Assembly (NCBI GenBank): GCA_047600485.1
Contig: JASGKS010000001.1
Span: forward strand, 6,720,259 to 6,784,258
Reading direction: 5' to 3'
DNA: 64,000 nucleotides
DNA from: Archangium sp.
Lineage (GTDB): Bacteria > Myxococcota > Myxococcia > Myxococcales > Myxococcaceae
The position numbers and the translations under genes were made by a program. Positions 19,440-46,793 of the stretch are shown one piece after another. Within the stretch, counting starts at the first letter, position 1. Every line of letters begins with the position of its first letter. The notes beneath the pieces were generated by a model. That model was not told where the DNA came from. It was given only the letters and a program-made list of their open reading frames with translations, and ran no database searches.

Positions 19440-20390
19440 ATGAAGAAGCTCGCGCTCGCTGCCGTGTCCGTCGCCGTGCTGGCCGTCGTGCTCTGGCCTG
19501 CGTCTCTCCCCGCGGTTCAGCCGCACTCCTTCGTGCCCTTGCCGACGGCGACCACGCCGCTCACCGTGTGCTGGGTCGACACGGGAGGCCTCGACGCTCC
19601 CGCGCGCTACGGAGCTGCGGGGTTGCCGACCGCCGATGCATGGCACGTCACCTCAGCGGCGCTGCTGGTGCGCCACCCGAAAGGCGACGTGCTCATCGAC
19701 GCAGGGCTCTCGCCGAACGCCCAGCACGAAGCGAACGAGCTCGGGGCGTGGAAGCGCTTCGTCTTCTCGCAGACTGCGGGGCGCAATCAGCCGCGACGCT
19801 CGCTCACCGAAGCGCTGCGGCAGCTCGGCGTGACGAAGCTCACCGCCGTGATTCTCTCGCACGCGCACCCCGACCACATGGGTGGACTGGTGGCGCTCCG
19901 TGACGCGCCTGTGTGGCTCGCCGCCGAAGAGAAGACGTTCATCGAGAGTGGCAACACGGTGGTGATTCCCGCGCACGCTCGAGCGGTGAGCGGTCGCATG
20001 GCCGCGTTGAACTTCGAGCGCGTGCCATTCGCGAACTCCGATACGCGGGCCGACGTCTTCGGCGACGGCTCGGTGGTGGTGACACCCGCGTTCGGCCACA
20101 CGCCCGGCAGCATCAACACCTTCATCAATGCTCCCGGCGGGCGGCTGGTGCACGTGGGTGACCTCATCAACCTCCGCGAGTCGCTCACGCGCGAAGTGCC
20201 GAAGTCGTTCGCCATGCGAATGCTCACCGACGAAGACGTGCACGCCACGTCGGAGCAGGTCGCGCGTCTGGTCGAGCTGAGCAAGGCCGACCCGAAGCTC
20301 ACCATTCTCCCCGCGCACGACAGGCCCGGGTGGTCGGCGCTCTTCGGTGACGACGGCCTCGCGGGCGCGCCACCGTGTGTCCAGTGGTGA
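19440..20390 (+). CDS. MBL-fold hydrolase, N-acyl-homoserine-lactonase-like, secreted
   Basis: Signal peptide [28 protein letters not shown] zinc motif. Confidence 0.7.
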
Positions 20391-20454
20391 AGCCGGCGCG
20401 CGTAATACTTCCGAGCTATTTCCGGCTCTCGCCCGCGCAGCTACGAATCGACGG

Positions 20455-21435
<981 letters not shown>

Positions 21436-33960: not shown

Positions 33961-35147
33961 TTCGTCTTCACGCAGTTGGCGATGATCAGGTGGTCGTTTT
34001 TCTGCTCGGTGCCATCGGCGTAGCCGAACCGCATCGGCACCTTCTTCGCGTTCTCGAACAGCGCCTTCACTTCGTCGACGTGCGGATCATTCTGCGCCTC
34101 GACGAGGAACGGCTTCTCGAATTTCCCGAACGCTTCGACCTTGCAGCCCTTCTCCTTCCATTCCGAAGGAGGCACGCCGGTCGAGTCGCTCACCATGAAC
34201 ACCGCGTTGGCGAGCAGCCAGTTGGTCAGCTTGCTGAAGCCGCCGTCCCACAAGAGGTAGCTCGCGGCCTTGGTCATGGCGGTGACGCGGCCCTTCTTCT
34301 CGAGATGCGCGATGAGCCCTGCCGGCAATTTCTTGTTCGCGAGGTTGGCGGCGAAGTGGCGATGAATGCGCGGAGTCGCGTCGCGCTGACCCTTCGGCAC
34401 GAACTGCACCTCGACGTTCGCGAACGCCGGAGAGAAGTCAGGGCTCTTCCACTCGTCGTTGAGCTTCTTCGCCTTCTTGCCGTCGAGCGCGTCGATGTCG
34501 TCGAGCGTGAGGTAGTGCAGAGAGCCGTCACTCTCGAGGCGGAAGAAGCGCACTGAGACCGGCTCCTGGCCTGCGAGCGCGAGCCCCATGAGATGCATCG
34601 AGAGCTGCGCCGGCAATTCACCGCGCTGCGCGTCGGACATCTCTTCGGAGACCGAGTCGTTGTTGATGAGCGTCGACTCGCTGACGTCGGCGATGACCTT
34701 GAGCGACTTCTTCAGCACCTTCGCGTCGCTCAACGACTTCCACCGTCGCGGGTCGCCGGCGAGCTCGAGCGAGATGGTGGTGACTTCCTGCGCCTCCGGG
34801 AAGAGCTGCAGCGCCGACATCAAGTCGCCACCGCCGAACGGGTACACCACCGAGGTCGGGAGGCCGGCCGGTTTGTGCGGAGTGAGAAAGCCGTTCGCCT
34901 TCTTCCCCCACTTCGAGGTGAAGCGGTCGTAGCGGCGCTTCTGCTTCACGCACCACTTGTCGACCACGCTCGCGTCGATGCCCGATGGCGTCGCCTGGCA
35001 GGTCACCAACTCGAAGATGGGGCGAACGTCGTCGATGAACTCCGCGGGCGCGGGCGAAGCGACCGCGGGTTGATCAGCCGCGGCCAACGTCAATGCGAGA
35101 GCGAGTCCGAACACGCCTTCGAAGAAGACCACGAAAGCGCGGGCCAC
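33957..35147 (-). CDS. Secreted hypothetical protein
   Basis: Signal peptide. 4-nt overlap with the upstream 854-aa gene. Confidence 0.55.
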   Translation of the reverse strand: MARAFVVFFEGVFGLALALTLAAADQPAVASPAPAEFIDDVRPIFELVTCQATPSGIDASVVDKWCVKQKRRYDRFTSKWGKKANGFLTPHKPAGLPTSVVYPFGGGDLMSALQLFPEAQEVTTISLELAGDPRRWKSLSDAKVLKKSLKVIADVSESTLINNDSVSEEMSDAQRGELPAQLSMHLMGLALAGQEPVSVRFFRLESDGSLHYLTLDDIDALDGKKAKKLNDEWKSPDFSPAFANVEVQFVPKGQRDATPRIHRHFAANLANKKLPAGLIAHLEKKGRVTAMTKAASYLLWDGGFSKLTNWLLANAVFMVSDSTGVPPSEWKEKGCKVEAFGKFEKPFLVEAQNDPHVDEVKALFENAKKVPMRFGYADGTEQKNDHLIIANCVKTK

Positions 35148-35177
35148 TCGATTTCGTGACCCGCCCGAATTGCATCC

Positions 35178-35657
35178 TCACTTCGCCGGCGGGAGCAAGA
35201 CCGCGTCGACGATGTGCACGATTCCGTTGCCGGCGCGGGCCGAGCCGAGAATCTGCGCGTCGTTCACGTACGTCTTTCCGTCCTTCACGTGGAAGACGAC
35301 GTTGCCGCCGTTCGCAACGCCCAGCTTCATGCCTTCCTTCATGGAGCGCACTTCGTAGACCGACACCGCCACGTGGAACTTGAGGATGTTCTGGAGCGCT
35401 TCTTTGCTCTCCGGCTTCATCAAGCCATCGAGCGTTCCTTTGGGGAGCTTGTCGAACGCTGCGTTGGTGGGCGCGAACACCGTGAACGGTCCGGCGTTCT
35501 GCAGAGAACGCACGTACTCGGCGGCCTTGAGCGCTGTGACGAGCGTGGTGTGGTCAGGCGAGCTCACGGCGATGTCGACCACCGTCGCGGGAGGTGCGTC
35601 GGCCGCGAGTGTGAACGACGAGAGGAGACAGATGATGGCGAGGGAAGTGCTTCGCAT
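35178..35657 (-). CDS. Fasciclin (FAS1) domain protein, secreted
   Basis: Signal peptide plus FAS1 motifs (TVFAPTNAAF, GIVHIVDAVLLP). Sits 34 nt downstream of nosY. Confidence 0.8.
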   Translation of the reverse strand: MRSTSLAIICLLSSFTLAADAPPATVVDIAVSSPDHTTLVTALKAAEYVRSLQNAGPFTVFAPTNAAFDKLPKGTLDGLMKPESKEALQNILKFHVAVSVYEVRSMKEGMKLGVANGGNVVFHVKDGKTYVNDAQILGSARAGNGIVHIVDAVLLPPAK

Positions 35658-35690
35658 GTGAACCTCCGGGTGCGACGTGAAAGCAGGGCC

Positions 35691-36524
35691 TCAAGCAATG
35701 AGGTCCATGCGCTGCGCTCGACGGAGCGCAGCAAGCGTGGCGATGGTGCCCAGCGCGGCGGGCCAGGCGATGGCGACCGTCAGCGCGAGTGCCGGGCCCA
35801 GCGTGTTGGCGAGCCAGAAGCCGACGGGGCCGAGCACTGACAGCTCGGGGTCGGTGCTCGCCAGAATTCCCACGCGCGCGGCTTCGACGGGGTTGATGGC
35901 CGAGAGCGCGAAGACGAGCTGCGGCGGCAACGAGGTTCGCAGCAGCACGGTGATGAGCAGCACATCGTGGAGCGCCGCGGTGACGACGAAGAGCAGCAGC
36001 GACCACACCATCGCGCGCTCGGCGTTGCGCGCCCAGGTTGAGATGAACAGACCCAGGCCGATGAACGCGAAGACCAGCGCCACGCTGACCCCGACGCTCT
36101 TGAAGGCGATGACGGCCAACCCGGGTTCGGGCTCGACGAAGAACGCGGCGACGAAGCTGCCGATGAGCAGCACGAGCAGCGGGCCGACGAGCACGATGAG
36201 CCGCGAGACGAGCAGCGAGAAGAACCACGTCGAGCGCTTCACCGGCTGGGTGAGCATCAGCTCGCAGAAGCCGCTGGTGCGCGCGCGCACGACGGCAGCG
36301 TGGGTGGCCACCAGCACCACCAACGGAAACACGAGGATGATGGCGTTGGCGAGATTGAGCAGCACTCGCGAGAGACCGGTGAAGCCGAGCACGGTCGACT
36401 CGCGCAGGCCGAACCACACGAAGGCCCCGGCGAGCCCGAGGTAGATCAACCCGGTCAGCGCCACCCAGCGCGAGCGGAGCGCGTCGGCAAGCTCGAGCCG
36501 AAGGAACGCAGCGAAGGGACTCAT
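35691..36524 (-). CDS. nosY: ABC-2 type permease NosY
   Basis: Six-TM ABC-2 permease. Its start ATG overlaps the nosL stop (ATGA). Confidence 0.75.
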   Translation of the reverse strand: MSPFAAFLRLELADALRSRWVALTGLIYLGLAGAFVWFGLRESTVLGFTGLSRVLLNLANAIILVFPLVVLVATHAAVVRARTSGFCELMLTQPVKRSTWFFSLLVSRLIVLVGPLLVLLIGSFVAAFFVEPEPGLAVIAFKSVGVSVALVFAFIGLGLFISTWARNAERAMVWSLLLFVVTAALHDVLLITVLLRTSLPPQLVFALSAINPVEAARVGILASTDPELSVLGPVGFWLANTLGPALALTVAIAWPAALGTIATLAALRRAQRMDLIA

Positions 36525-36949
36525 GGCAACACCTGCTCGGTGCCCGGCCGCGCCTTCTTCGCGACAGCCGCGCGCACCTCGTCGAAGCCCACGCCCTCGT
36601 TGGCCGGGAGGAAGCCGAAGTCCATCGGGGTCTTGCCCGCCGCGAAGCGCGTCTGCGCGGGGTCCACCCACCCTTCTCCACGCGGATCACGGACCCAGCG
36701 CGCGACGACCTGAGGGTGCTCGCGGTCTTCCCACGAGATGAGACAACCGACGTCGTCGAAGAACTTTCGCTGGCCGTTCTCGAGCAACAGCTGCGCGCTC
36801 GGCGCCTTCTCGCTCACCAGCATCGAGCAGTGCGCGCACGCCTGCTTTCCCCACCAGGGTTCCTGCGGAGCGGCCGGCCCGCGCGCGCAAGCGGTGGCGA
36901 GCAACACCACCGCGACGAGCCGATTCCAGGTCATCGCGGAGCACTTCAT
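36521..36949 (-). CDS. nosL: Copper chaperone lipoprotein NosL
   Basis: Lipoprotein signal (LLATAC). CAHCSM and DDVGC motifs typical of the NosL family. Confidence 0.7.
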   Translation of the reverse strand: MKCSAMTWNRLVAVVLLATACARGPAAPQEPWWGKQACAHCSMLVSEKAPSAQLLLENGQRKFFDDVGCLISWEDREHPQVVARWVRDPRGEGWVDPAQTRFAAGKTPMDFGFLPANEGVGFDEVRAAVAKKARPGTEQVLP

Positions 36950-37650
36950 CGGACACCTCCCGGGCGCAGCGTGATGACGTTGTCGACGCTGGCCTGCGCG
37001 CCCCACTGCATGTGTTCGAGCGCGGCGTCCTGCACCACGCGGCCCTCGTCGAGCTGCACCACGCGCTGCACGAGGTGACGCACCTCATCGACGCGGTGGC
37101 TGCACAGCACGAGAATCGACGTCGCGGGCCGCGCGAGCACGTCGTCGAAGAAGGCGTTCCGCGCCGCGGCGTCGAGGTTGGCGGTCGGCTCGTCGCACAC
37201 CAGCACCGGCGCTTCGGCGGTCAGCGCCAGCGCGGCGAGCAGCTTCTGCTTCATGCCGCCCGAGAGGTCGCGCACGCGCGTCTTCGCCACGGCGTCGAGG
37301 TCGAGCCCGAGCCGCCGCGCACGCAACGCACACGCCCCCGGCTCGCGCGAGCGCAGGGCGCAGAACGCAGTGACCAATTCCCGCACCGGCGCGTCGAGCG
37401 GCGGAGCGACCTGGGGCATGCACGCCAGACTGCGCAGGGCGACCTCGGGTTCGCGCGCGACGTCACTCCCGAACAAGGTGACGCGCCCCTCGACGCGCAG
37501 CAACCCACACAGCGCGCGCAGCAGCGTGGTCTTGCCCGAGCCGTTGGTGCCGACGAGAGCCACGCGCTCACCGGGCTTGATGTCGAGCGACACCGCGTCG
37601 AGCGCACGCACGCGGCCAAACGTCTTGCTCACGTTCTGAAAGGAGATCAT
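36946..37650 (-). CDS. nosF: ABC transporter ATP-binding protein NosF
   Basis: Walker A GTNGSGKTT, LSGGMKQK signature, Walker B LVCDEP. Confidence 0.85.
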   Translation of the reverse strand: MISFQNVSKTFGRVRALDAVSLDIKPGERVALVGTNGSGKTTLLRALCGLLRVEGRVTLFGSDVAREPEVALRSLACMPQVAPPLDAPVRELVTAFCALRSREPGACALRARRLGLDLDAVAKTRVRDLSGGMKQKLLAALALTAEAPVLVCDEPTANLDAAARNAFFDDVLARPATSILVLCSHRVDEVRHLVQRVVQLDEGRVVQDAALEHMQWGAQASVDNVITLRPGGVR

Positions 37651-38888
37651 CGCGGCACCTCACGGTGGGGACGCATCGCGGGCGTCGGGTCTTGCAGCAG
37701 CAACGTCGCGCCGAAGTACGGCAACGCCGAGGCCACCGCGTCGTAGAGCCCGAAGGCCGCGGTGCCGTGGAACCAGTGGAGCTCGGGGTGGGCGTCGCTG
37801 ATGCCCGAAGACGCGCGCTTCACCTGGAACGCGACGTCACCCACGCCGTCGGAGTCGAGGTCGTAGCCGGCGTACGCCGCCCAGTGGTTGCCCGCGAAGT
37901 CGATGCCCAGCGCGTCGCCGTTCCCGTCGACCTCGACCAGCGCGTCGTTGTCGAGGAAGTCGTTGTCGGTGAACCGCGCGCCTCGCTCGCTGGAATGGGT
38001 GCGCAGCGCGCAGGCGTTGAGCGCCAGCATGTTCTCTTCGAACACCACCGGCTGCTTCGGGTCGCGCGGCGTGTAGTCGAGGTACAGGCCGGTGGTGTTG
38101 GCGACGATGGCGTTGCGGCGCAGCGTCACTGCGTCGCTTTCCTTGAAGCCGATGCCCATGCCCGCTGGCCCGCGCGCGCCAGACAGCTCGTTGTCCTCGG
38201 CGAGCACGCGGGCCGAGTACATGAAGAAGATGCCGACGGTGTTGCCGCGGAGCACGCTGCGCCGCACCGTCGAGTCGTGCGCGTACATGAAGTGCGTGCC
38301 GTAGCGGCCGCCGGTGATGCGGTTGTCTTCCAGCGTGACGTGGCGCGAGTACCAGACGACGAGGTCGCGCACGCCGCGCACGTCGAGCCGCCGCACCGTC
38401 GAGCCGTGCGCTTCCCACAGCTTCACGCCGTCGCCGCGCTGGTTCTCTTCGATCTCCGCGCGCCCCTCGATGCGGGTGTCCTCGAGCAGACAGGCGTGGC
38501 ACTGCTCGAACGCAATTCCATACAGCGTGTCACGCACCGCGACGCGACGGACGGTGGCGCGCTCTCCGGTGAGCTTGAGCGCGCCGTCTTCGAACGACAC
38601 GCGCGCGCCGGAGCCCTGGAAGGTGACGTCTTCCACCACCACGTCGTCGCCGTGAATGCGCAGGATGGTGGCCTTGCCGCTGCCCTGCAGCACGGCGTTC
38701 TCGCAGCCGTGAAGCGCGAGGCCACGCTTCACCTCGAAGTCACCCTGCACCGTGCCGCCGATCCACACGTCGCGGTCGCTGCCCTCGAGCGCGGCCTTCA
38801 ACGACGCCGCGTCACGGCTGGCGTTGGGAGGGCACGGCGGCGAGAGCGGACCGGCGGCGGTCAGCAGCGTGAGGAGCAGGGCGCTCAC
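37647..38888 (-). CDS. nosD: Periplasmic parallel beta-helix protein NosD
   Basis: Signal peptide plus repeated right-handed beta-helix units (NxxxGIxxxxS-type). Overlaps nosF by 4 nt. Confidence 0.8.
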   Translation of the reverse strand: MSALLLTLLTAAGPLSPPCPPNASRDAASLKAALEGSDRDVWIGGTVQGDFEVKRGLALHGCENAVLQGSGKATILRIHGDDVVVEDVTFQGSGARVSFEDGALKLTGERATVRRVAVRDTLYGIAFEQCHACLLEDTRIEGRAEIEENQRGDGVKLWEAHGSTVRRLDVRGVRDLVVWYSRHVTLEDNRITGGRYGTHFMYAHDSTVRRSVLRGNTVGIFFMYSARVLAEDNELSGARGPAGMGIGFKESDAVTLRRNAIVANTTGLYLDYTPRDPKQPVVFEENMLALNACALRTHSSERGARFTDNDFLDNDALVEVDGNGDALGIDFAGNHWAAYAGYDLDSDGVGDVAFQVKRASSGISDAHPELHWFHGTAAFGLYDAVASALPYFGATLLLQDPTPAMRPHREVPR

Positions 38889-38889
38889 G

Positions 38890-39348
38890 TCATTTCTCCA
38901 CGCTCTTGAGGTAGCTCAAGATGAATGGGAGCTCGGTCTGCGGGTTCACGCCCTGGTTCGGCATCGGCGTGAGGTGCTCGACGAAGGGCTTCTTGGCGGT
39001 CTCGTCGTCTTTGATCATCACGTCGGGGCGCAGAATCATCTTCTTGATCCACGTTTCGTCGCGGCGCGCGGTGACGCCCTTGAGATCAGGACCGACGAGC
39101 TTGCCGCCGCCGATCTTGTGACACGCCGAGCAACCCTTGGCGGCGAACGTCTCCTCGCCCTTCTTGATGTCGGCGGGCGCGGTGCTGATGGTGAAGGTCG
39201 GCACTTCGATCTCCACCTTCGCGGGCGCCGCGGGCTCGGCCGGTGCGGGAGCCGCGACCGCCTGCGGCTCGGGTGATTTGGGCGCTTCGGTCGGCTTTTC
39301 GTTGCACGCGGACAACACGAGTCCCGCGGCGAGGATGATTCGCTTCAT
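38890..39348 (-). CDS. Monoheme c-type cytochrome lipoprotein (clade II nos-associated)
   Basis: Lipobox LSAC. Single CSACH heme motif. The Met ligand is in MILRPDVM. Confidence 0.8.
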   Translation of the reverse strand: MKRIILAAGLVLSACNEKPTEAPKSPEPQAVAAPAPAEPAAPAKVEIEVPTFTISTAPADIKKGEETFAAKGCSACHKIGGGKLVGPDLKGVTARRDETWIKKMILRPDVMIKDDETAKKPFVEHLTPMPNQGVNPQTELPFILSYLKSVEK

Positions 39349-39388
39349 GACTGCTCTCCTGGTGGTGAACGGGTGAGGTGGGAACCGG

Positions 39389-41350
39389 CTACTTCGCCTT
39401 CGGCTTCACCATGAAGTAGCCCATCATCTCGAGGTGCAGCGCCGAGCAGAACTCGGTGCAGTACATCGGGAAGACGCCCGGCTTGTCGGCGACGAACTTC
39501 ACGTTCTCGTGCTTGCCGGGCTCGAGCGACAAGTTGATGCCGTACATGTCGATGGTGAAGCCGTGCACCTGGTCCTCGGCCTGCTCGACCGAGGTGATGT
39601 GCAGGTAGACGATGTCGCCCTCTTCGACCTCGATGCGGTCGGGCGTGAAGTGGCTGCGAATGGCAGTCATGTACACGTTGACCACGTTGCCGTTGCGCTC
39701 GATGCGCTCCTTGCCCGGCGTGACGGCGAACTCGTCCTTCTGATCAGTGTAGGGGTTGGTGCCCATCGGGTAGACCTTCATGGGCGCCAACTTGTCCGCC
39801 TTGATCATCTGCGCGTAGTGCGGCTCGCCGATGCCGATGGGCATGTCGGCCAGCAGCTTCATCTTTTGTCCGTCGATGCCGACCAGCTGGAAGTTCTGCG
39901 GGTAGAGCGGACCGATGTTCGCGAAGCGGTCGATGCTCATCTTGTTCATCGCCACTACGTACTTGCCGTCGGGGCTGACCGTGTCGCCCTCCGCCGCGAG
40001 GATGTGGCCGATGTTGTAGTGAACCGGCAACTTCTCGACGACCTTCAGGGTCTTCAGGTCCCACTTCGCGACCACGCTCTCGATGAACACCGAGGTGTAG
40101 GCGAAGCCCTTGTCGTCGTAGACGGTGTGCAGCGGCCCAAGGCCGATCTCCACCTGCCCGCGAATGCTGTCCTTGAACGGGAGGATGTTGAGGCCGTAGC
40201 TGTCCTTGCCCTCGAACGTTCCCGCCTCGATGAGGTTCTTGATCTTCTCGAAGCGATACACGGTGGCGTGCGTGTCGAGCTTGCCGCCGACCACGATGTC
40301 TTCACCGTCGGGAGTGACGTCGACGCCGTGCGGTGACTTCGGCTCTGCGATGAGCGTGAGCACCTTCTCCGGCCCGGTGACCTCGAGCGGCAGCACCTTC
40401 ACGCCCTTGATGGTCTTCGCCTTGCCTTCCTTCACCAGCGCTTCGGCCTTCTTCCAGTTGATGACGTGGAGGAAGTCGGTGTCGTTCTGCGACGCGCCAG
40501 ACTCGACGGGCGGGTTGCCTTCGAGAATTCCGCCCGTAGCCATCTCGGTGTTGAAGCTGTTGATGAAGATGTAGCCGTCAGACGCGCGCTTGCCGGAGTC
40601 GGCGAGGTCCTGCGTGTACGGCGGCAGCTCGACGCCGAACGACTCGCTCTCGACGATGCGGCCCTTCGTGCGGTCGAACTTCCAGAACATCGCCAGGCCG
40701 CGGTACTTCTCCTTGTACTGGCTGACCGGCACGTACTCGCGGCCCAGCGGCGACGGGTACTGGCTGGTCTCGATGACGTAGTCGGTGTTGGGCGTGACGA
40801 AGGCGCCGCCGTGGTCGGACGCGACCAGCGGGTTGGGCACGATCTGCTTCGTCGCGAAGTCCGACAGGTCGACCACCGCCACGCGCGCGTTCGCCTTGTC
40901 GTTCACGAAGAGGAACTTGCCGTCGTAGTCGCCGTTCATCTCGCTCAGGTTCGGGTGGTGCACGTCGGCCCACGCGAGCTTGCCGCCCTTGTATTGCTGG
41001 CCACCCTCGAGCACCTGATCAGACAGACCGCCGTAGCCGTAGCCCTGCCACGGCTCGGGCGTGAACACGCCGAGCACCTTCAACAACCGCATCGAAGGCA
41101 CGCCGATGGTGAGCACCTGACCAGACTGACCACCCGACGCGAAGATGACGTAGTCGTCCTTCTGCCCGCTGGGCTTGTACGTGAGGAGCGCGGCCTCGAC
41201 GTCGGCTTCGCTCAACTTGCGCTGAGCCATGATGTCCTTGAGGCCCGCGCTGGCTTGAGCGACGGGAGCGGAAGACGGCGTGCCCGGCGTCGAGCCCGAA
41301 GAGCAGGCGCTCACGGACAGAACGACGAGGGCGAGGAGAAGACGTTTCAT
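39389..41350 (-). CDS. nosZ: Nitrous-oxide reductase NosZ, clade II (Sec/lipoprotein type)
   Basis: 653 aa. N-terminal MKRLLLALVVLSVSAC with no twin-Arg. Beta-propeller CuZ His region. C-terminal CuA motif CTEFCSALHLEMMGYF. Strong GGAGG RBS. Confidence 0.95.
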   Translation of the reverse strand: MKRLLLALVVLSVSACSSGSTPGTPSSAPVAQASAGLKDIMAQRKLSEADVEAALLTYKPSGQKDDYVIFASGGQSGQVLTIGVPSMRLLKVLGVFTPEPWQGYGYGGLSDQVLEGGQQYKGGKLAWADVHHPNLSEMNGDYDGKFLFVNDKANARVAVVDLSDFATKQIVPNPLVASDHGGAFVTPNTDYVIETSQYPSPLGREYVPVSQYKEKYRGLAMFWKFDRTKGRIVESESFGVELPPYTQDLADSGKRASDGYIFINSFNTEMATGGILEGNPPVESGASQNDTDFLHVINWKKAEALVKEGKAKTIKGVKVLPLEVTGPEKVLTLIAEPKSPHGVDVTPDGEDIVVGGKLDTHATVYRFEKIKNLIEAGTFEGKDSYGLNILPFKDSIRGQVEIGLGPLHTVYDDKGFAYTSVFIESVVAKWDLKTLKVVEKLPVHYNIGHILAAEGDTVSPDGKYVVAMNKMSIDRFANIGPLYPQNFQLVGIDGQKMKLLADMPIGIGEPHYAQMIKADKLAPMKVYPMGTNPYTDQKDEFAVTPGKERIERNGNVVNVYMTAIRSHFTPDRIEVEEGDIVYLHITSVEQAEDQVHGFTIDMYGINLSLEPGKHENVKFVADKPGVFPMYCTEFCSALHLEMMGYFMVKPKAK

Positions 41351-41391
41351 GTGAACCTCCGGGAGTTGCGAGTCGTGACGGCGCGCTGAAG

Positions 41392-41407
41392 TGCGAGCGA
41401 TGTGCCA
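41392..41407 (-). promoter_or_regulatory. Candidate sigma-54 (-24/-12) promoter upstream of nosZ
   Basis: The minus strand reads TGGCAC-ATCGC-TCGCA. The GG/GC spacing is exact and there is one mismatch to the TTGCA -12 element. The -12 element lies about 40 nt upstream of the nosZ ATG. Confidence 0.45.
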
Positions 41408-41515
41408 GCGCTGATCAGGAGCGCGGAGCGAGCGCAGCGCGTCGATTCGCTGCAGCGCGTGCGCGCGAGCCCGAATTCACGCAACCAGTGCGCACCGGCA
41501 TGTTCCGCCGCCGGT

Positions 41516-42495
41516 TCACTTTGAAACCGCCTCGTATTGCTTGAGCTTGCGCCACAGCGTGGTGCGCCCGATGCCGAGCACGCGCGCGGCGTCGACCAGC
41601 TGACCTCCGCAGGCGTCGAGCACGCGCAACACGTGCCGCTTCTCCGCCTCGTAGAGCGAGAGGAGCGGGTCGTTCACCGTCAGCGCCGGCTGCAGCACCA
41701 CCTCGGGCAGATGCGCCGGCTCGATGGCCTGGCCACGCGCGAGCTGTGCGGCGCTGCGCACGGCGTTGTGAAGCTCGCGCACGTTGCCCGGCCACGAATA
41801 GGCGCGCAGCGCACCGAGCGATGCCGGCACGAAGCCGGCGTGGTTGCCCTGCTGCTCGAGGAACATCTCGGCGAGCGAGAGCACGTCGTCACCGCGCGCG
41901 CGCAGCGGCGGCACTTCGAGCGTGAACACGCTGAGCCGATAGAAGAGGTCTTCGCGAAACCGCCCGTCGCGCACGAGTCGTTGCAGGTCGTGCACGGTCG
42001 AGCACACCAGCCGTACGTCGACGTGCACGGGTGCGCCGCCGCTCGGGTGAACTTCACGGTCTTCGACGACGCGGAGCAGCGGCCCTGCACCACGAGCGGG
42101 AGGTCTGCCACCTCGTCGAGAAAGAGCGTTCCCCCGTGCGCCACTTCGAATGCGCCGTGGCGCAACACCGCGCCGAAGAGCTCGAGCGACAGCGCGTCGA
42201 CTTCGCCCGCGGCGCAGTTGAGCACCACGAACGGCCGGTCGCGCCGCGGACTGTTCACGTGGAGCGTGCGCGCGAGCACCTCTTTCCCGACGCCGGGCTC
42301 TCCACGCAGGAGCAGCGGCTCGGGAGCACCCGCGAGCGCCTCGAGGCGCGAGAGAATGGTCTGCATCGTCTCGCTCTGCGCGACGAGTCGGCGGCAGGTG
42401 CGCGGGCCGGCGTGCTGCTCGGCCGCGGCGCTGCAAATCCTGCACAGCGTGCCTCGCTCGACCGGGCTGCTGCACGTGAAGGGTCCCAGAGCCAT
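41516..42495 (-). pseudogene. Sigma-54-dependent activator with Cys-rich N-terminus, interrupted by a -1 frameshift (or sequencing error)
   Basis: The N-terminal part (GEPGVGKE...GGTLFLDEVADLPLVVQGR) and the C-terminal part (LLRVVEDRE...VDVRLVCST...GNVRELHN...HTH) are each contiguous but lie in two frames. The junction at about 42079-42083 is consistent with one missing C. Confidence 0.7.
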
Positions 42496-42561
42496 GCGCA
42501 GATGCGGTGCATGGACGGTACCGGCGCGACGCTGGCGTGCCCGATGCACCGCAGGCTGCGC

Positions 42562-43221
42562 ATGAAGATCTACCTCTCGCGCTTCTACGCCTTCCTCGCG
42601 CAGCCGCTCCGGCCGGTCTCGCGCGTCGTGCTCGCGACGCTGGCCGTGCCGCTGGCGCTGGCGTTCTTCCAGCCGCTGTGGCGCATCTCGATGGAAGCGC
42701 CGCAGTACCCCGCGGGGCTGTACCTCGACATCTACGCGCACACCGTCGAGGGCGGGAACGGCGGCCAGCACCTTCAGGAAATCAACACGCTCAATCACTA
42801 CATCGGCATGCGCACGCTCGATCGCGCGGCGATGACCGACCTCGACTGGATTCCGTTTGCGCTCGGCGCGCTGCTCATCTTCGCGCTGCGCGTGGCCGCC
42901 ATCGGCAACGTGAGCTCGCTGGTCGATCTCGCGGTCGCCACCTTCTATGTGAGCGCCTTCGCGTTCGGCCGCTTCGTCTACACGCTGTGGGTGTTCGGTC
43001 ATCACCTGAAGCCCGATGCGCCCGTGAAGGTGCCGGGGTTCATGCCCGCGGTGCTGGGCAGCAAGCAGATCGCCAACTTCACGACGCACAGCGGGCCACG
43101 CGAGGGCTCGTTCCTCCTCGGCGTCTTCGTGTTGGGCGTGCTCGGCGTACTCCTCTTTCACCTCGTCGCAGGGCGGCGTGAGGCCGTGCGGCAGGCGGCG
43201 CTCGCTGGCGCGGCGGCTTGA
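42562..43221 (+). CDS. Hypothetical integral membrane protein (4 TM)
   Basis: Divergent from the sigma-54 activator. Hydrophobic helices. First gene of the plus-strand operon. Confidence 0.5.
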   Translation: MKIYLSRFYAFLAQPLRPVSRVVLATLAVPLALAFFQPLWRISMEAPQYPAGLYLDIYAHTVEGGNGGQHLQEINTLNHYIGMRTLDRAAMTDLDWIPFALGALLIFALRVAAIGNVSSLVDLAVATFYVSAFAFGRFVYTLWVFGHHLKPDAPVKVPGFMPAVLGSKQIANFTTHSGPREGSFLLGVFVLGVLGVLLFHLVAGRREAVRQAALAGAAA

Positions 43222-43224
43222 CCC

Positions 43225-44499
43225 ATGACGACGCTCACGCAACGCCACCTGCGTCTGGGCGTGGTCGCGACGCCCGCACGTCAGGCCGCGCCATGGACAC
43301 CGTTCGTCGTCGCGTCGCTCGTCTTCACCGTGCTCGTCGGAGCGCTCACCGGCGCGCTCGACTTGTGGACGTTGCGCGTCCTCCAGACTGCGGTGCCCGA
43401 GGCGCATCGGCAGGCGCACGCGCTCGGTCAGCTGTTCGGCTTCCTGTGGCTGCTGACGCTCGGCGTCTCGCTGCACCTCGCTCCGAAGTTCTTCGCGCAC
43501 CCCGAGCCACGCCCTGAGCTGGTGCGCGCGCTCGCGTGGTTCGGCATCGGCGGCGTGGTGCTGCTCGTCATCGGCCGCTTCGGCCGGCTGGTTCCGCACT
43601 CCGCTTCACTCGGCGCCGTCGGTGCGTTCGCGCTGCTGGTGACGATGACCGCGTGGCTCCACTGGCTCTCGCAGGCGTGGAGACAGGGCGTCGCGCCGAA
43701 GGAGCCGCTCCACGCCTTCATCACCGCGGGCGCCGCGTGGTGGTGGCTCGCTTCGCTCGGCGTCATGGCGTGGACGTGGTGGCCCGCGAAGGTGCCGCTC
43801 GAGGCCGTGTGGCGCATCGCGCTCTTCGGCGGCGTCGCGTCGTGGCTGTGGGGCGTCTTCTTCCGCGCAGGAATCTGCACCTTGCGCGTGCAGCGACCGA
43901 CGCTCCGCTCGCAGTGGGTGCTCTTCGGCATGTGGCAGCTCGCGAGCGCCTCGAGCGTGCTCGCCGTGGTCTTCGACGCGCGCGCGCTGCAATTCACCGC
44001 CGGCCTCAGCATGGCCGCGGCGTGCGCGCTGTTGTGGCGCAACGTGCGGCCCTTCTCGGGTGACGGCGTCGCGGCGCTCGGGGCGCTCCAGCCGCGCGCG
44101 GTGCAGGCCGGCCTGGTCTTCGTCGCGCTCTTCGGCGCACTGCAGGCGTGGGTGGCGCTGCGCGCGCTCGAGGTGTGGAGCCCTGCGTTGCTCGACGATG
44201 CCGCTCGGCACGCGTTCACGCTCGGCGCGGCGACTCTGCTCGCGTTCGGCTTCGCCGGGCGCATGGTGCCCGGCTTCCTCGGAACCTCTCTGCGTTGGCC
44301 GCGCGTCTACGACGTCGGCGTGGTGCTCGTGGCGTGCGGCGCCGCCGGTCGATTCGCCGAGCTGTCGGCCCTGCCCGTGATGCAGCGCCTCGCGGGGGGC
44401 TCCGGTGCGCTCGCGGCCCTCGGCGTCACGGCCCTCACCGCCTCGCTGCTGCGCTCGATTCGCGCAGGACGCGCTCTGCAGCAGGAGCGCGCGTCATGA
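43225..44499 (+). CDS. Polytopic membrane protein, NnrS-like (NO-response heme-copper membrane protein family)
   Basis: 424 aa, about 12 TM helices, Trp/His-rich. The NnrS assignment rests on size, topology and denitrification context. Confidence 0.45.
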   Translation: MTTLTQRHLRLGVVATPARQAAPWTPFVVASLVFTVLVGALTGALDLWTLRVLQTAVPEAHRQAHALGQLFGFLWLLTLGVSLHLAPKFFAHPEPRPELVRALAWFGIGGVVLLVIGRFGRLVPHSASLGAVGAFALLVTMTAWLHWLSQAWRQGVAPKEPLHAFITAGAAWWWLASLGVMAWTWWPAKVPLEAVWRIALFGGVASWLWGVFFRAGICTLRVQRPTLRSQWVLFGMWQLASASSVLAVVFDARALQFTAGLSMAAACALLWRNVRPFSGDGVAALGALQPRAVQAGLVFVALFGALQAWVALRALEVWSPALLDDAARHAFTLGAATLLAFGFAGRMVPGFLGTSLRWPRVYDVGVVLVACGAAGRFAELSALPVMQRLAGGSGALAALGVTALTASLLRSIRAGRALQQERAS

Positions 44500-45392
44500 G
44501 CGTCAGAAAAGTAAGTCTTTGCTTACTTCTATTGGCGGCTCCTGCGGCACAAGGCGCGGCCTGCTGCCTGTCGGTCTCGGTGGTCGGGGCCGGCCGGCTC
44601 ACCGCGTGGGAAGCGGGAGCAGCGGGCGTCTCGTCTTCTTTCGCGCACAGCACCGGGCGCTGGAACGGCGCCAGCACCTGGCGAGCCTTCGACGGCGGCC
44701 TGCTGGAAGACGAGCTGCGCTTCGAAGCGTGGGGCATCGTGCGGCTCGCCGACGCGTGGCAGCTCTCGGCGCGCGTGCCGTGGGTCGTCGGTTTCCGCTC
44801 GGCGGGTGACGTGAACTCGGTCGGCACGGGCCCGGGTGACGTCAGCGCCGCGATTCGCTGGGAAGCGGTGCCGCTCGGAGCGTGGCTGCACGTACCGGGC
44901 ATCGCGTTCACCGCCGGCGTCACGGGTCCGACGGGCCGACGGCCGGAGCAGGCCACCGACACGCTCGGAGCGAGCATCACCGGGCGCGGCGCGTTCGGCG
45001 GAAGTCTTGGCGTGACGGTCGAGGAGACGTGGAACCCGTGGTTCGTGCGCGGAGACGGTGGAGCGACGGTGTTCGCTCCGTTCACGCGGCAGGACCTCGG
45101 CGCGTCGCAGTGGCTCGGCCCCAACCTGCAGGTCGCGCTCTCGGGTGGCCGCGAGTTGTTCGAGAAGCTGGTGCTCGCGCTCTCGGTGCGCGTCGACCAC
45201 GACTTCCCGTACGCGCTCGACGGTCGCGTCATCGCGGGTTCCGCGGCGACCACGCTCTCGGCTTCGGCCTCAGCCGCATGGAAGGTGACCAACCACTGGA
45301 CCGTCACGGCCGCCGTCACCGGCGACGCGCTGGGCGTCAACCGCGAGGCGCGTCTCGCCGCCACCCTCGGAGTTCGTCATGGCTTCTTCTGA
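44496..45392 (+). CDS. Outer-membrane beta-barrel-like protein
   Basis: Signal peptide, alternating amphipathic strands, C-terminal ...HGFF. ATGA overlap with the upstream gene. Confidence 0.45.
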   Translation: MSVRKVSLCLLLLAAPAAQGAACCLSVSVVGAGRLTAWEAGAAGVSSSFAHSTGRWNGASTWRAFDGGLLEDELRFEAWGIVRLADAWQLSARVPWVVGFRSAGDVNSVGTGPGDVSAAIRWEAVPLGAWLHVPGIAFTAGVTGPTGRRPEQATDTLGASITGRGAFGGSLGVTVEETWNPWFVRGDGGATVFAPFTRQDLGASQWLGPNLQVALSGGRELFEKLVLALSVRVDHDFPYALDGRVIAGSAATTLSASASAAWKVTNHWTVTAAVTGDALGVNREARLAATLGVRHGFF

Positions 45393-46011
45393 GCTGCGCC
45401 GCGCCATCGCTGTCGCCGTGCTGGTGTTCGCGGGCTGCGCGACGTCGAGCTCGTCGCGCGGGTTGCAGCACGCGACGCTGACCTCGACCACGCGCGCGCG
45501 CACCACCGCGCAAGAACTCGTCGCCGCGTCCGACGGCACGGTGTTCGTCTTCTGGTCGGGCGGCTGCCCGTGCGTGCGCCGCTACCAGGCGCGCATCGAA
45601 GCGCTCGCGGCCGAGTGGAGCGTTCGCGGCATCGCGTTCGTGCAGGTCTCGAGCAACGCGGGAGAGAGCATCGACTCGCTCGCCGACGTGGCGCGAAACC
45701 GCGGGCTGAAGCTGCCGCTGTGGCGCGACGACGAAGGCGCGCTGGCCGAAGCGCTCGACGCGCGCACCACACCGACCGTGGTGTTCGTCGCGCGTGATGG
45801 CCGCGTGCTCTACCGCGGGTGGATCGACAACGAGCGCGCGCCCGGAGAAGACGGTCGCGAGGCGTGGCTCGAAGACGCGCTCGTAGGCTTCACCGCGGGC
45901 AGGCCGTTCGCCAGCCGCACGCCGACCTGGGGCTGCACCATCACCCGCTCACTCGCGCGCTCGTCGGCGCCGCTGTGTCACGTCGTCACCGAAGAAGGAG
46001 TCACGCCATGA
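45379..46011 (+). CDS. Thioredoxin-fold lipoprotein (TlpA/Sco-like thiol-disulfide oxidoreductase)
   Basis: Lipobox FAGC. FVFWSGGCPCV redox motif. Confidence 0.6.
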   Translation: MASSELRRAIAVAVLVFAGCATSSSSRGLQHATLTSTTRARTTAQELVAASDGTVFVFWSGGCPCVRRYQARIEALAAEWSVRGIAFVQVSSNAGESIDSLADVARNRGLKLPLWRDDEGALAEALDARTTPTVVFVARDGRVLYRGWIDNERAPGEDGREAWLEDALVGFTAGRPFASRTPTWGCTITRSLARSSAPLCHVVTEEGVTP

Positions 46012-46793
46012 AGTTCTTTGGGCTCTGCGTCGTTGTGTCGCTGTTCGCATGTGGGCCGCAGCCATCGGCCACTCCCGACTCCACGCTTCGTGCGAGCGCG
46101 ACGAGCGGTGAGCTGACGGTCGAACTGCGCTCCGACGAGCCGCTGCACGTCGGGCAGAACGTGGTGCGCTACCGGGTGTTGCACGACGGCGTCGACGCAC
46201 CGCACGCGCTGATCACGCAGACGCCGCGAATGCAGATGATCATGGGCTCGGGCGAGACCCCGCACGGGTGCCCGCTGAAGAACCCCGACCACGAGCCGAA
46301 CGCCGACGGCTTCTTCGAGGGGCTGCTGGTCTTCACCATGCCGAGCTCTGTCGACACGCGGTGGTCGCTCACGCTCGAGGTCGAGCTGCACCACGGCGCG
46401 GCGCCACTGCTCGTCGACTTCGGTGAGCTCGAGATTGCTGACTCCACGTCGCGGCAGTTCGCGATGCGTGACGGGCAGCGCGTGATGCTCACCGCGGCGC
46501 TCGAGTCGAAGCCGAAGCTGGGAGCGAACACCTTCATCGTCACCGCGCATCGCGCCGAAGACGCGGCCCTGCTCTCGTGGGTGCCGGTGACCGACCTGAC
46601 GTTCAGCGTGACGCCCGAGATGCCGGTGATGGGCCATGGGTCGTCGAACAACGAGGCTCCGGTGCCCGGCGAAGACGGCCTGTACCGGGGCACGGTGAAC
46701 TTCATGATGGCCGGTGACTGGGTGGTGCACGTGGGCGCGCGCGCTGGTGACGTCGCGCTGACGACCTTCGACGTGCCGTTCACCGTCGAGTGA
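46008..46793 (+). CDS. Lipoprotein with Met/His-rich putative Cu(I)-binding motif (CopC/YtkA/PCuAC-like)
   Basis: MKFFGLCVVVSLFAC lipobox. TPRMQMIMGSGETPHG and MPVMGHG Met-His clusters. Two beta-sandwich-like halves. Confidence 0.5.
   Translation: MKFFGLCVVVSLFACGPQPSATPDSTLRASATSGELTVELRSDEPLHVGQNVVRYRVLHDGVDAPHALITQTPRMQMIMGSGETPHGCPLKNPDHEPNADGFFEGLLVFTMPSSVDTRWSLTLEVELHHGAAPLLVDFGELEIADSTSRQFAMRDGQRVMLTAALESKPKLGANTFIVTAHRAEDAALLSWVPVTDLTFSVTPEMPVMGHGSSNNEAPVPGEDGLYRGTVNFMMAGDWVVHVGARAGDVALTTFDVPFTVE

What the first reader, a model, noticed from the sequence alone, without database searches (positions are those of the whole stretch)
35178..41350. Clade II (lipoprotein, Sec-type) nitrous-oxide reductase cluster nosZ-cytC-nosDFLY in a myxobacterial-type genome
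NosZ has a lipobox signal (LSVSAC) and no twin-Arg motif, and it retains the CuA motif CxxFCxxxHxxM. It is followed by a monoheme cytochrome c lipoprotein and nosD/F/L/Y, with ATGA-type overlaps throughout. nosL precedes nosY, whereas the usual order is D-F-Y-L. No nosR, nosB, nosG or nosH lies within the cluster. This is a compact atypical nos locus, implying non-denitrifier-type N2O reduction with an unknown electron-donor route.
Basis: partly seen in the sequence, partly recalled or inferred. Interest (0 to 1): 0.55.

Follow-up and report, generated by a model that had tools for sequence, protein, structure and literature searches.

The report
Myxobacterial clade II nos cluster, nosB included
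This is a real but fairly ordinary nitrous-oxide-reductase gene cluster from an Archangium (myxobacterial) genome.

Summary
On the minus strand, 35178-41350 encodes a Sec/lipoprotein clade II NosZ (TIGR04246 838 bits, cutoff 625; the Tat-type model falls below its cutoff). It is followed by a monoheme cytochrome c lipoprotein and nosD, nosF, nosL, nosY.

The "atypical" interpretation mostly fails:
- **nosB is present** at 42562-43221 (+), 1.2 kb upstream of nosZ and divergent. It carries the published NosB motif LNHYIGM. Its homologues sit between nosZ and nosD in most related Myxococcota loci, and also in Hymenobacter and Thermomicrobium.
- **The D-F-L-Y order is lineage-typical**: all 66 related loci (of 80) that contain all four genes show it.
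- **The electron route is not exceptional.** Clusters with a cytochrome c but no nosGH are common. The usual model is a bc-type complex feeding cytochrome c, then CuA.

The protein is already in NCBI as "Sec-dependent nitrous-oxide reductase [Archangium sp.]".

New details found here:
- Conserved sigma-54 promoters lie before both nosZ and nosB.
- The activator between them has an N-terminal four-cysteine motif and is frameshifted in this assembly.
- nosB heads an operon with NnrS-like, barrel-like, thioredoxin-like and YtkA-like genes.

Verdict: new member of a known kind, low-to-moderate interest.

The parts
39389..41350 (-). nosZ: clade II, Sec-dependent nitrous-oxide reductase, predicted lipoprotein (653 aa)
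   Evidence: TIGR04246 scores 838 bits (cutoff 625); TIGR04244 scores 396, below its cutoff. Lipobox LSVSAC, no RR. The lipobox Cys is conserved in at least 107 of 120 homologues. CuZ histidines and the CuA motif are present.
38890..39348 (-). Monoheme cytochrome c lipoprotein, the probable direct electron donor to CuA (152 aa)
   Evidence: PF00034 at 36.6 bits. Single CSACH motif and lipobox VLSAC. Found directly after nosZ in nearly all of the 40 (of 80) related loci that carry it.
37647..38888 (-). nosD: periplasmic beta-helix maturation protein (413 aa, GTG start)
   Evidence: PF05048 at 120 bits. TIGR04247 scores 295.5, just under its cutoff of 300. Syntenic in 70 of 80 loci.
36946..37650 (-). 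nosF: ABC ATPase (234 aa), ATGA overlap with nosD
   Evidence: PF00005 at 85.5 bits. Assigned by position and synteny in 67 of 80 loci. Junction sequence.
36521..36949 (-). nosL-like copper chaperone lipoprotein (142 aa), ATGA overlap with nosF
   Evidence: PF05573 scores 22.9 bits, just under GA 24. Lipobox LLATAC and a CAHCSM motif. Syntenic in 66 of 80 loci.
35691..36524 (-). nosY: ABC-2 permease (277 aa), ATGA overlap with nosL
   Evidence: PF12679 at 46.7 bits. Start codon. Syntenic in 66 of 80 loci.
35178..35657 (-). Secreted fasciclin (FAS1) domain protein, 34 nt after nosY, probably co-transcribed.
   Evidence: PF02469 E 6.5e-31. A fasciclin gene lies within 10 kb of nosZ in 27 of 80 related loci, about 11 of them just after nosY.
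41392..41407 (-). Sigma-54 type -24/-12 promoter element TGGCACatcgcTCGCA, starting 57 nt upstream of the nosZ ATG
   Evidence: It is the only match in the 64 kb window (expected 0.16). An equivalent element lies upstream of nosZ in all 17 Archangium-type loci with enough upstream sequence (L001-L011, L013-L015, L017, L018, L051), and in many others.
41516..42495 (-). Sigma-54 enhancer-binding protein: N-terminal Cys4 motif (C-x10-C-x2-C-x13-C), AAA+ domain and Fis-type HTH, with no receiver domain. Its reading frame is broken by a 1-nt frameshift at about 42076-42079.
   Evidence: tblastn with the L001 orthologue gives two pieces in frames -2 and -1 that meet at 42076-42079. The Cys4 motif is conserved in all 13 Archangium-type orthologues.
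42533..42548 (+). Sigma-54-like -24/-12 element TGGCGTgcccgATGCA, starting 29 nt before the nosB ATG
   Evidence: An equivalent element sits at -28 to -31 in 15 of the 17 Archangium-type genomes examined (the window plus 16 loci); the other two have it at -40 and -50.
42562..43221 (+). nosB: four-helix membrane protein, the clade II hallmark accessory gene (219 aa; the NCBI call starts at 42511 and names it a hypothetical protein)
   Evidence: Exact LNHYIGM motif, plus FGHH where the published second motif is YGHN (PMC9697520). A homologue is present in 73 of 80 related nos loci, mostly between nosZ and nosD. Homologues occupy the same slot in Hymenobacter and Thermomicrobium. AF2 model pLDDT 90.
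43225..44499 (+). Polytopic membrane protein (424 aa), possibly a distant NnrS relative
   Evidence: PF05940 NnrS gives only E 0.15, though the alignment spans the full length. Follows nosB in 8 related loci.
44496..45392 (+). Secreted protein of 298 aa that looks like an outer-membrane barrel; ATGA overlap with the preceding gene
   Evidence: No family match. Signal peptide and C-terminal ...GVRHGFF. Near nos genes in 10 related loci. The barrel assignment is an inference.
45379..46011 (+). Thioredoxin-fold (AhpC/TSA, redoxin, ResA/TlpA-like) lipoprotein
   Evidence: PF00578 and PF08534. Weak matches to ResA and StoA.
46008..46793 (+). YtkA-like domain lipoprotein, a candidate CuA copper-insertion factor; ATGA overlap with the thioredoxin gene
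   Evidence: PF13115 at 54.5 bits. B. subtilis YtkA/CtaK is a CuA assembly lipoprotein (PMC9145763).

Best explanation
This is a complete clade II nitrous-oxide-reduction regulon of an Archangium-type myxobacterium, spanning about 35178-46793 rather than 35178-41350.

**Shown from sequence**
- NosZ is exported unfolded by Sec, probably lipid-anchored, and carries all CuA and CuZ ligands.
- A lipoprotein monoheme cytochrome c follows nosZ.
- NosD, NosF, NosY and NosL form the usual sulfur/copper delivery machine for CuZ.
- NosB is encoded in a divergent operon, translationally coupled to NnrS-like, barrel-like, thioredoxin-like and YtkA-like genes.
- Conserved sigma-54 -24/-12 elements precede both operons. 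A sigma-54 activator gene with a four-cysteine N-terminus lies between them.

**Inferred**
- Electrons pass from the quinol pool through a bc-type complex or alternative complex III encoded elsewhere, then to the cytochrome c lipoprotein, to CuA, and on to CuZ.
- The thioredoxin-like and YtkA-like proteins help assemble CuA.
- The Cys4 activator senses a metal or redox signal and switches on both operons.
For: - **NosZ clade:** HMM classification.
- **Ligands:** ligand and motif checks.
- **Lipobox:** conserved in at least 107 of 120 homologues, with essentially no twin-arginine motifs.
- **Synteny:** across 80 Myxococcota loci, nosD occurs in 70, nosF in 67, nosL and nosY in 66, nosB in 73 and cytC in 40.
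- **NosB identity:** motif LNHYIGM, and the canonical nosZ-nosB-nosD/L position in Hymenobacter sp. DG25B and Thermomicrobium roseum.
- **Operon structure:** translational coupling by ATGA overlaps in both operons.
- **Promoters:** the sigma-54 element before nosZ is unique in the window and conserved. The element before nosB is positionally conserved.
- **Activator:** adjacent sigma-54 activator.
- **Literature:** NosB is essential in Wolinella, and clusters with a cytochrome c and nosBDLYF are modelled with a bc complex (PMC9697520; PMC13274427). YtkA/CtaK and TlpA act in CuA assembly (PMC9145763).
Against: - No expression or activity data exist.
- The activator gene carries a 1-nt frameshift in this assembly. 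If genuine, the regulon may be silent in this organism.
- NosL (22.9 bits vs GA 24) and NosD (TIGR04247 295.5 vs 300) fall marginally below curated cutoffs.
- NosB was not compared directly with the experimentally studied Wolinella protein. Its second motif reads FGHH, not YGHN.
- The bc-type donor complex is not in the window, so the electron route is inferred only.
- The roles of the NnrS-like, barrel-like, thioredoxin-like, YtkA-like and fasciclin proteins are guesses from domain families and co-location.
Confidence: 0.8

Rival explanations
1. One reading: a compact, nosB-less, nosR-less clade II cluster (nosZ-cytC-nosDFLY only) whose electron supply and maturation must follow an unknown route.
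For: No nosB, nosR, nosG or nosH lies inside 35178-41350, and no nosR/G/H lies anywhere in the window. NCBI and Pfam give the 219-aa protein no name, so it is easy to miss.
Against: The divergent gene at 42562-43221 has the NosB hallmark motif and occupies the nosB slot in 50 or more related loci and in two other phyla. Both operons carry conserved sigma-54 elements. Clusters of cytochrome c plus nosBDFYL without nosGH are already described.
Confidence: 0.07
2. The locus is intact in its structural genes but transcriptionally dead or decaying in this organism, because its dedicated sigma-54 activator is a frameshifted pseudogene.
For: The activator reads in two frames that join at 42076-42079, whereas 13 orthologues are uninterrupted.
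Against: Every other gene of both operons is open, with high third-position GC (0.76-0.91 for the minus-strand genes) and conserved ligands. A single missing base in a G/C run on a 9.4 Mb single-contig MAG is what a long-read consensus error would look like; that is an inference. A second sigma-54 activator exists at 20281-21435.
Confidence: 0.1
3. The cluster serves N2O or NO/copper stress handling under micro-oxic conditions rather than energy-conserving anaerobic N2O respiration.
For: Myxococcia such as Archangium are generally aerobes (own knowledge). An NnrS-like membrane protein, a family linked to NO stress, may be co-encoded, though the match is weak. No other denitrification genes lie in the window.
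Against: The complement of cytochrome c and nosBDFYL is the same as in organisms that respire N2O. Nothing in the sequence distinguishes detoxification from respiration.
Confidence: 0.15

Closest known systems
Polyangia-type Myxococcota nos loci (for example L020-L074: nosZ-[cytC]-nosB-nosD-nosF-nosL-nosY)
   Same: NosZ is 66-76% identical with the same lipobox-type signal. The accessory set and D-F-L-Y order are the same, a fasciclin gene is frequently nearby, and sigma-54-like elements often lie upstream of nosZ.
   Different: In those loci nosB sits in the canonical slot between nosZ/cytC and nosD. Here, and in the other Archangium-type loci, it has moved to a divergent operon behind a Cys4-type activator. 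In the Polyangia-type loci, most nearby sigma-54 activators have receiver domains and none has the Cys4 motif.
Compact clade II clusters of Bacteroidota, Bacillota and Thermomicrobiota (Hymenobacter sp. DG25B plasmid nosZ-nosB-nosL-nosD-nosF-nosY; Thermomicrobium roseum; Flavobacterium; Schinkia nosZ-cytC-nosBDLYF)
   Same: Sec-dependent NosZ. NosB plus NosDFYL with no NosR/X and no NosGH. A cytochrome c is often adjacent. The position of nosL is variable.
   Different: NosB is only 29-40% identical. Those clusters keep nosB right after nosZ, and Hymenobacter has a Crp/Fnr regulator rather than a sigma-54 activator. In some Bacteroidota NosB is fused to NosL; it is not fused here.
Wolinella succinogenes clade II nos cluster (nosZ, nosB, nosD, nosG, nosC1, nosC2, nosH, nosF, nosY, nosL)
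   Same: Sec-type NosZ, the presence of NosB, and NosDFYL maturation genes (Hein et al. 2017, as cited).
   Different: There is no NosGH/C1/C2 quinol-dehydrogenase module in the window. NosZ here is 653 aa with no CxxCH, so it lacks the C-terminal cytochrome c domain of the Wolinella enzyme (that domain is own knowledge). Electrons probably arrive through a separate monoheme cytochrome c.
Clade I nosRZDFYLX clusters of denitrifying Pseudomonadota
   Same: The same catalytic fold and ligands (solved clade I enzymes match at E 1e-74 to 1e-95), and NosDFY/NosL maturation.
   Different: Clade I has a Tat signal and nosR/nosX. Here the signal is Sec/lipobox, the Tat-type model is below its cutoff, nosR is absent and nosB is present.

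Membership tests
Clade II (Sec-dependent) NosZ | Scores above the curated cutoff of the Sec-dependent NosZ model and below that of the Tat-dependent model | tested here: met
   TIGR04246 838.1 bits (cutoff 625). TIGR04244 396.4 bits (cutoff 625).
Clade II (Sec-dependent) NosZ | Sec-type signal peptide without a twin-arginine motif | tested here: met
   MKRLLLALVVLSVSAC, with lipobox and no RR. At least 107 of 120 homologues keep the lipobox Cys, and 1 of 120 has an RR-like string. No dedicated signal-peptide predictor was available.
Clade II (Sec-dependent) NosZ | Seven CuZ histidines and the CuA ligand motif | tested here: met
   HH131-132, H180, H341, H408, H449 and H511 align with conserved histidines of solved enzymes. 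CuA: H596 and C631-x3-C635-x3-H639-x2-M642.
Clade II (Sec-dependent) NosZ | nosB in the gene neighbourhood; nosR and nosX absent | tested here: met
   nosB at 42562-43221, 1.2 kb from nosZ. No FMN-bind/4Fe-4S NosR-type or ApbE-type protein among the window ORFs scanned.
Clade I (Tat-dependent) NosZ | Passes TIGR04244 and carries a twin-arginine signal | tested here: not met
   396.4 bits against a cutoff of 625; no RR motif.
Clade III lactonase-type NosZ (L-NosZ) | Passes NF052460 | tested here: not met
   218.9 bits against a cutoff of 700.
NosB | Conserved sequence stretch LNHYIGM | tested here: met
   Exact LNHYIGM at residues 77-83. LNHYIGM or INHYIGM occurs in 71 of 73 related Myxococcota homologues. 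Motif definition from PMC9697520.
NosB | Second conserved stretch YGHN | tested here: inconclusive
   The window has FGHH at residues 145-148. The relatives have [FY]GH followed by a variable residue in 63 of 73. The Gly-His core is kept but the flanking residues differ.
NosB | Polytopic membrane protein | tested here: met
   The AF2 model (pLDDT 90.2, pTM 0.84) has four long helices (18-36, 92-114, 117-147, 181-218) plus a small sheet formed by the two loops.
NosB | Encoded next to clade II nosZ, typically between nosZ and nosD | tested here: met
   Homologues occupy that slot in 50 or more Polyangia-type loci, in Hymenobacter sp. DG25B and in Thermomicrobium roseum. In this window the gene is adjacent but divergent.
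NosB | Sequence homology to the genetically characterised Wolinella succinogenes NosB | not tested
   No reference sequence could be retrieved. No Pfam or NCBIfam model exists for it.
NosD | Passes the NosD family models | tested here: inconclusive
   Pfam PF05048 scores 120 bits (GA 23.6), so it is met. NCBIfam TIGR04247 scores 295.5 against a cutoff of 300, marginally below. Synteny supports the assignment.
NosL | Passes PF05573; lipoprotein | tested here: inconclusive
   22.9 bits against GA 24. A lipobox and a Cys/Met-rich N-terminal motif are present. The position between nosF and nosY is conserved in 66 of 80 loci.
NosGH/NosC1C2 quinol-dehydrogenase module | NrfC-like 4Fe-4S protein, NrfD-like membrane protein and extra cytochromes c in the cluster | tested here: not met
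   No such Pfam domains in any high-GC3 ORF of the 64 kb window.
Sigma-54-dependent operon | A -24 GG / -12 GC element at correct spacing upstream, plus a cognate AAA+ activator | tested here: met
   TGGCAC-N5-TCGCA starts 57 nt upstream of the nosZ ATG, is unique in the window and is conserved. TGGCGT-N5-ATGCA starts 29 nt before the nosB ATG and is conserved. The activator has PF00158 and PF02954. Actual sigma-54 dependence is not testable with these tools.

The most novel reading that the evidence does not exclude
Archangium-type myxobacteria may run clade II N2O reduction as a distinct sigma-54 regulon. A receiver-less activator would sense a metal or redox signal through a four-cysteine N-terminal module (C-x10-C-x2-C-x13-C). 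It would then fire two divergent -24/-12 promoters. One drives lipoprotein NosZ, lipoprotein cytochrome c, NosDFLY and a fasciclin protein. The other, near-leaderless, drives NosB with NnrS-like, barrel-like, TlpA-like and YtkA-like proteins, a dedicated copper-site assembly module for NosZ. I found no description of this regulatory and accessory layout in the papers searched.
Probability: 0.35. Interest if true: 0.45.

Novelty: new member of a known kind. Interest (0 to 1): 0.27.

Why it matters
Clade II NosZ organisms are the main biological N2O sink, and Myxococcota make up a few percent of nosZ-bearing genomes in wastewater plants (PMC11409646). This locus adds no new enzyme or pathway.

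Its practical lesson is that nosB can be displaced onto the other strand. A scan that only looks directly downstream of nosZ could then miss it and misclassify such genomes as nosB-less.

The conserved sigma-54 promoters and the Cys4 activator give a testable lead on how myxobacteria regulate N2O reduction. I found nothing on that question in the held literature. The co-encoded thioredoxin-like and YtkA-like proteins are candidate CuA assembly factors for NosZ.

Tried and rejected
- **Exact-sequence look-up of the NosZ protein's contig**: not on record, so the rest of the genome could not be inspected for nir, nor or bc1 genes.
- **Retrieving reference NosB sequences** from the supplement of PMC11409646: the file is 400 kb, mostly nosR DNA, and the NosB entries were not reached. 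I abandoned this.
- **NCBIfam and Pfam on the 219-aa protein**: no model exists, so its identity rests on motif, synteny and cross-phylum position.
- **Fold search against AFDB**: library unavailable.
- **Foldseek against PDB**: only weak matches of claudin/TARP-like topology (best E 2.3e-3, TM 0.5 or less). I treat these as shared topology, not homology.
- **Clade I or clade III placement of NosZ:** rejected on HMM scores.
- **Reading the ORFs 41680-43599(-) and 41537-42565(+) as genes:** rejected. They are shadows of the frameshifted activator and of nosB, with poorer third-position GC.
- **Sigma-70 promoter scan of 34800-42700:** nothing found. The terminator scan was at background level.
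- **Literature searches** for sigma-54/RpoN with nosZ, fasciclin with nosZ, and Archangium with nosZ gave nothing relevant.

Full report
**1. What is at the coordinates**

The window is high in GC (64-72%), so I chose ORFs by third-position GC.

On the minus strand, 35178-41350 holds seven co-directional genes:
- nosZ, 39389-41350
- a cytochrome c gene, 38890-39348
- nosD, 37647-38888
- nosF, 36946-37650
- nosL, 36521-36949
- nosY, 35691-36524
- a fasciclin-domain gene, 35178-35657

ATGA start/stop overlaps join D/F, F/L and L/Y. The other junctions are short spacers of 38, 1 and 34 nt.

**2. NosZ**

- The Sec-dependent model TIGR04246 scores 838 bits (cutoff 625). The Tat-dependent model scores 396 (cutoff 625). 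The clade III lactonase-type model scores 219 (cutoff 700).
- The N-terminus MKRLLLALVVLSVSAC has a lipobox and no twin-arginine.
- Among the 120 best database homologues, at least 107 keep a lipobox cysteine and essentially none has an RR motif. Lipid anchoring looks like a trait of this whole Myxococcota NosZ group.
- Alignment to solved clade I enzymes (E 1e-74 to 1e-95) shows all seven CuZ histidines and the CuA ligands, with CTEFCSALHLEM at residues 631-642.

**3. Origin and prior knowledge**

A 100% identical protein is held by NCBI as 'MAG: Sec-dependent nitrous-oxide reductase [Archangium sp.]' on a 9.42 Mb contig. All 7,995 scored candidates matched at E <= 1e-50, including a cultured Archangium lansingense protein at 84% identity.

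Clade II nosZ in Myxococcota MAGs is already reported; they make up 4.2% of nosZ-bearing wastewater MAGs (PMC11409646).

**4. Synteny**

I fetched 80 related Myxococcota loci and mapped the window's proteins onto them with tblastn.

| Gene | Loci with the gene (of 80) |
|---|---|
| nosD | 70 |
| nosF | 67 |
| nosL | 66 |
| nosY | 66 |
| cytochrome c | 40 |
| fasciclin gene | 27 |

- Wherever all four maturation genes are present, the order is D-F-L-Y. nosL before nosY is therefore the norm for the lineage.
- The cytochrome c gene is almost always the first gene after nosZ where it occurs.
- The fasciclin gene lies within 10 kb of nosZ in those 27 loci, in about 11 of them directly after nosY.

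**5. The missed gene: nosB**

A 219-aa membrane protein encoded at 42562-43221 on the plus strand has homologues in 73 of the 80 loci.
- In the Polyangia-type loci it sits between nosZ (or cytC) and nosD.
- In the Archangium-type loci, including this window, it is divergent, upstream of nosZ.

The literature describes NosB as an uncharacterised polytopic membrane protein that marks clade II clusters. It usually lies between nosZ and nosD, is essential for N2O respiration in Wolinella, and carries two conserved stretches, LNHYIGM and YGHN (PMC9697520; PMC11409646).

The evidence here:
- The window protein has LNHYIGM exactly, at residues 77-83. It has FGHH where YGHN is expected.
- Among the Myxococcota homologues, 71 of 73 have [LI]NHYIGM and 63 of 73 have [FY]GH.
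- tblastn against annotated plasmids found homologues at 29-40% identity in Gemmatirosa, Hymenobacter, Tunicatimonas, Thermomicrobium, Deinococcus and haloarchaea.
- In Hymenobacter sp. DG25B and Thermomicrobium roseum the homologue is the 'hypothetical protein' immediately between an annotated Sec-dependent nosZ and nosL or nosD.
- JGI labels several close homologues 'copper chaperone NosL'. That fits the known NosB-NosL fusions in Bacteroidota.
- An AlphaFold model (pLDDT 90.2) shows four long helices and a small sheet built from the two loops. Foldseek against the PDB gave only weak claudin/TARP-like topology matches, so there is no solved relative.

I conclude that nosB is present. I could not compare it directly with the Wolinella protein.

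**6. The rest of the neighbourhood**

nosB is translationally coupled to four further genes:
- a 424-aa polytopic protein at 43225-44499, with only a faint full-length NnrS match (E 0.15);
- a secreted 298-aa barrel-like protein at 44496-45392;
- a thioredoxin-fold lipoprotein at 45379-46011;
- a YtkA-like lipoprotein at 46008-46793.

B. subtilis YtkA/CtaK is a CuA-assembly lipoprotein, and TlpA-type thioredoxins keep CuA cysteines reduced (PMC9145763). A CuA-assembly role for these two proteins in NosZ maturation is a reasonable inference, not a result.

**7. Regulation**

Between nosZ and nosB lies a sigma-54 enhancer-binding protein at 41516-42495 on the minus strand.
- It has AAA+ and Fis-HTH domains and no receiver domain.
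- It has an N-terminal four-cysteine motif, conserved in all 13 Archangium-type orthologues.
- In this window its frame is broken by one missing base at about 42076-42079. On a 9.4 Mb single-contig MAG this may be a consensus error, but I cannot tell.

A -24/-12 element, TGGCACatcgcTCGCA, starts 57 nt upstream of the nosZ ATG. It is the only match in the 64 kb window (0.16 expected). Equivalent elements precede nosZ in every Archangium-type locus with enough upstream sequence, and in many Polyangia-type loci.

A second element, TGGCGTgcccgATGCA, starts 29 nt before the nosB ATG. It holds that position (-28 to -31) in 15 of the 17 Archangium-type genomes examined, counting this window.

Two divergent operons sharing sigma-54 control is therefore well supported at sequence level. 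I found no paper in the held library describing this.

**8. Electron supply**

Pfam scans of the remaining high-GC3 ORFs across the window found no NosR, NosG, NosH, extra cytochromes, bc complex, or nir or nor genes.

Clusters with a cytochrome c and nosBDLYF but no nosGH are described in other phyla. They are modelled with a cytochrome bc complex feeding a c-type cytochrome (PMC13274427).

The most likely route here is: quinol, then a bc-type complex or ACIII encoded elsewhere, then the lipoprotein cytochrome c, then CuA, then CuZ. This is inference. Whether the organism is a non-denitrifier cannot be decided from 64 kb.

**9. Verdict**

Clade II, Sec/lipoprotein NosZ is correct.

The cluster is not unusually compact or nosB-less, its gene order is lineage-typical, and its likely electron route is conventional. 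It is a new member of a known kind, already annotated as such for NosZ.

The modest novelty lies in three things: the displaced nosB operon with candidate copper-site assembly genes, the Cys4 sigma-54 activator with its paired promoters, and the recurrent fasciclin gene.

Noticed in passing
window 41516-42495 (-), break at about 42076-42079: The sigma-54 activator next to nosZ is split between two reading frames by a single missing base, while 13 orthologues are intact. It is either an assembly error on the 9.4 Mb contig or a genuine pseudogene.
   Followed up: partly
window 42360-42495 (-); L001, L003-L006, L009, L010, L013, L015, L017, L018, L051: The activator has no receiver domain. Instead it starts with a roughly 45-residue motif, C-x(10-11)-C-x2-C-x(12-13)-C (GPFxCxTPFERGGxLCxxCR...GRxCxR), conserved in all Archangium-type orthologues. 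No Pfam match. It may be a metal or redox sensor.
   Followed up: partly
window 35178-35657 (-); 27 of 80 related loci: A secreted fasciclin (FAS1) domain protein recurs next to Myxococcota nos clusters, often right after nosY. No paper in the held library links fasciclin proteins to nos genes.
   Followed up: partly
window 41350-41365 and 35657-35672 (-): nosZ and the fasciclin gene share an identical 16-nt translation-start context, CCCGGAGGTTCACATG.
   Followed up: no
window 43225-44499 (+): A 424-aa polytopic membrane protein directly after nosB gives only a faint but full-length match to NnrS (PF05940, E 0.15). It follows nosB in 8 related loci.
   Followed up: partly
window 42562-43221 (+), model mb4f874cf1e3c: The NosB model has four helices plus a five-stranded sheet made from both outer loops, a claudin/TARP-like topology. 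The invariant His79 (in LNHYIGM) and His147 (in FGH) lie at helix ends next to that sheet. This hints at a periplasm-facing metal site; the sidedness is inferred.
   Followed up: partly
window 42511 versus 42562 (+): The NCBI gene call for nosB (236 aa, hypothetical protein QM817_30795) starts 51 nt upstream of the start supported by homologues. That extension would swallow the conserved -24/-12 element.
   Followed up: partly
window 20281-21435 (+): A second sigma-54 activator (PF00158, E 3.4e-60), 38% identical to the L001 orthologue of the nos-linked activator, lies 20 kb away beside LysR and metallo-beta-lactamase-fold genes.
   Followed up: no
L020-L076 (for example L049, L054, L058, L060, L063, L065, L068, L076): Polyangia-type nos loci often have a receiver-domain NtrC-type activator a few kb upstream on the opposite strand, plus TGGYYC-N5-TTGCA elements before nosZ. 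Sigma-54 control of nosZ may be general in Myxococcota, with different sensors.
   Followed up: partly
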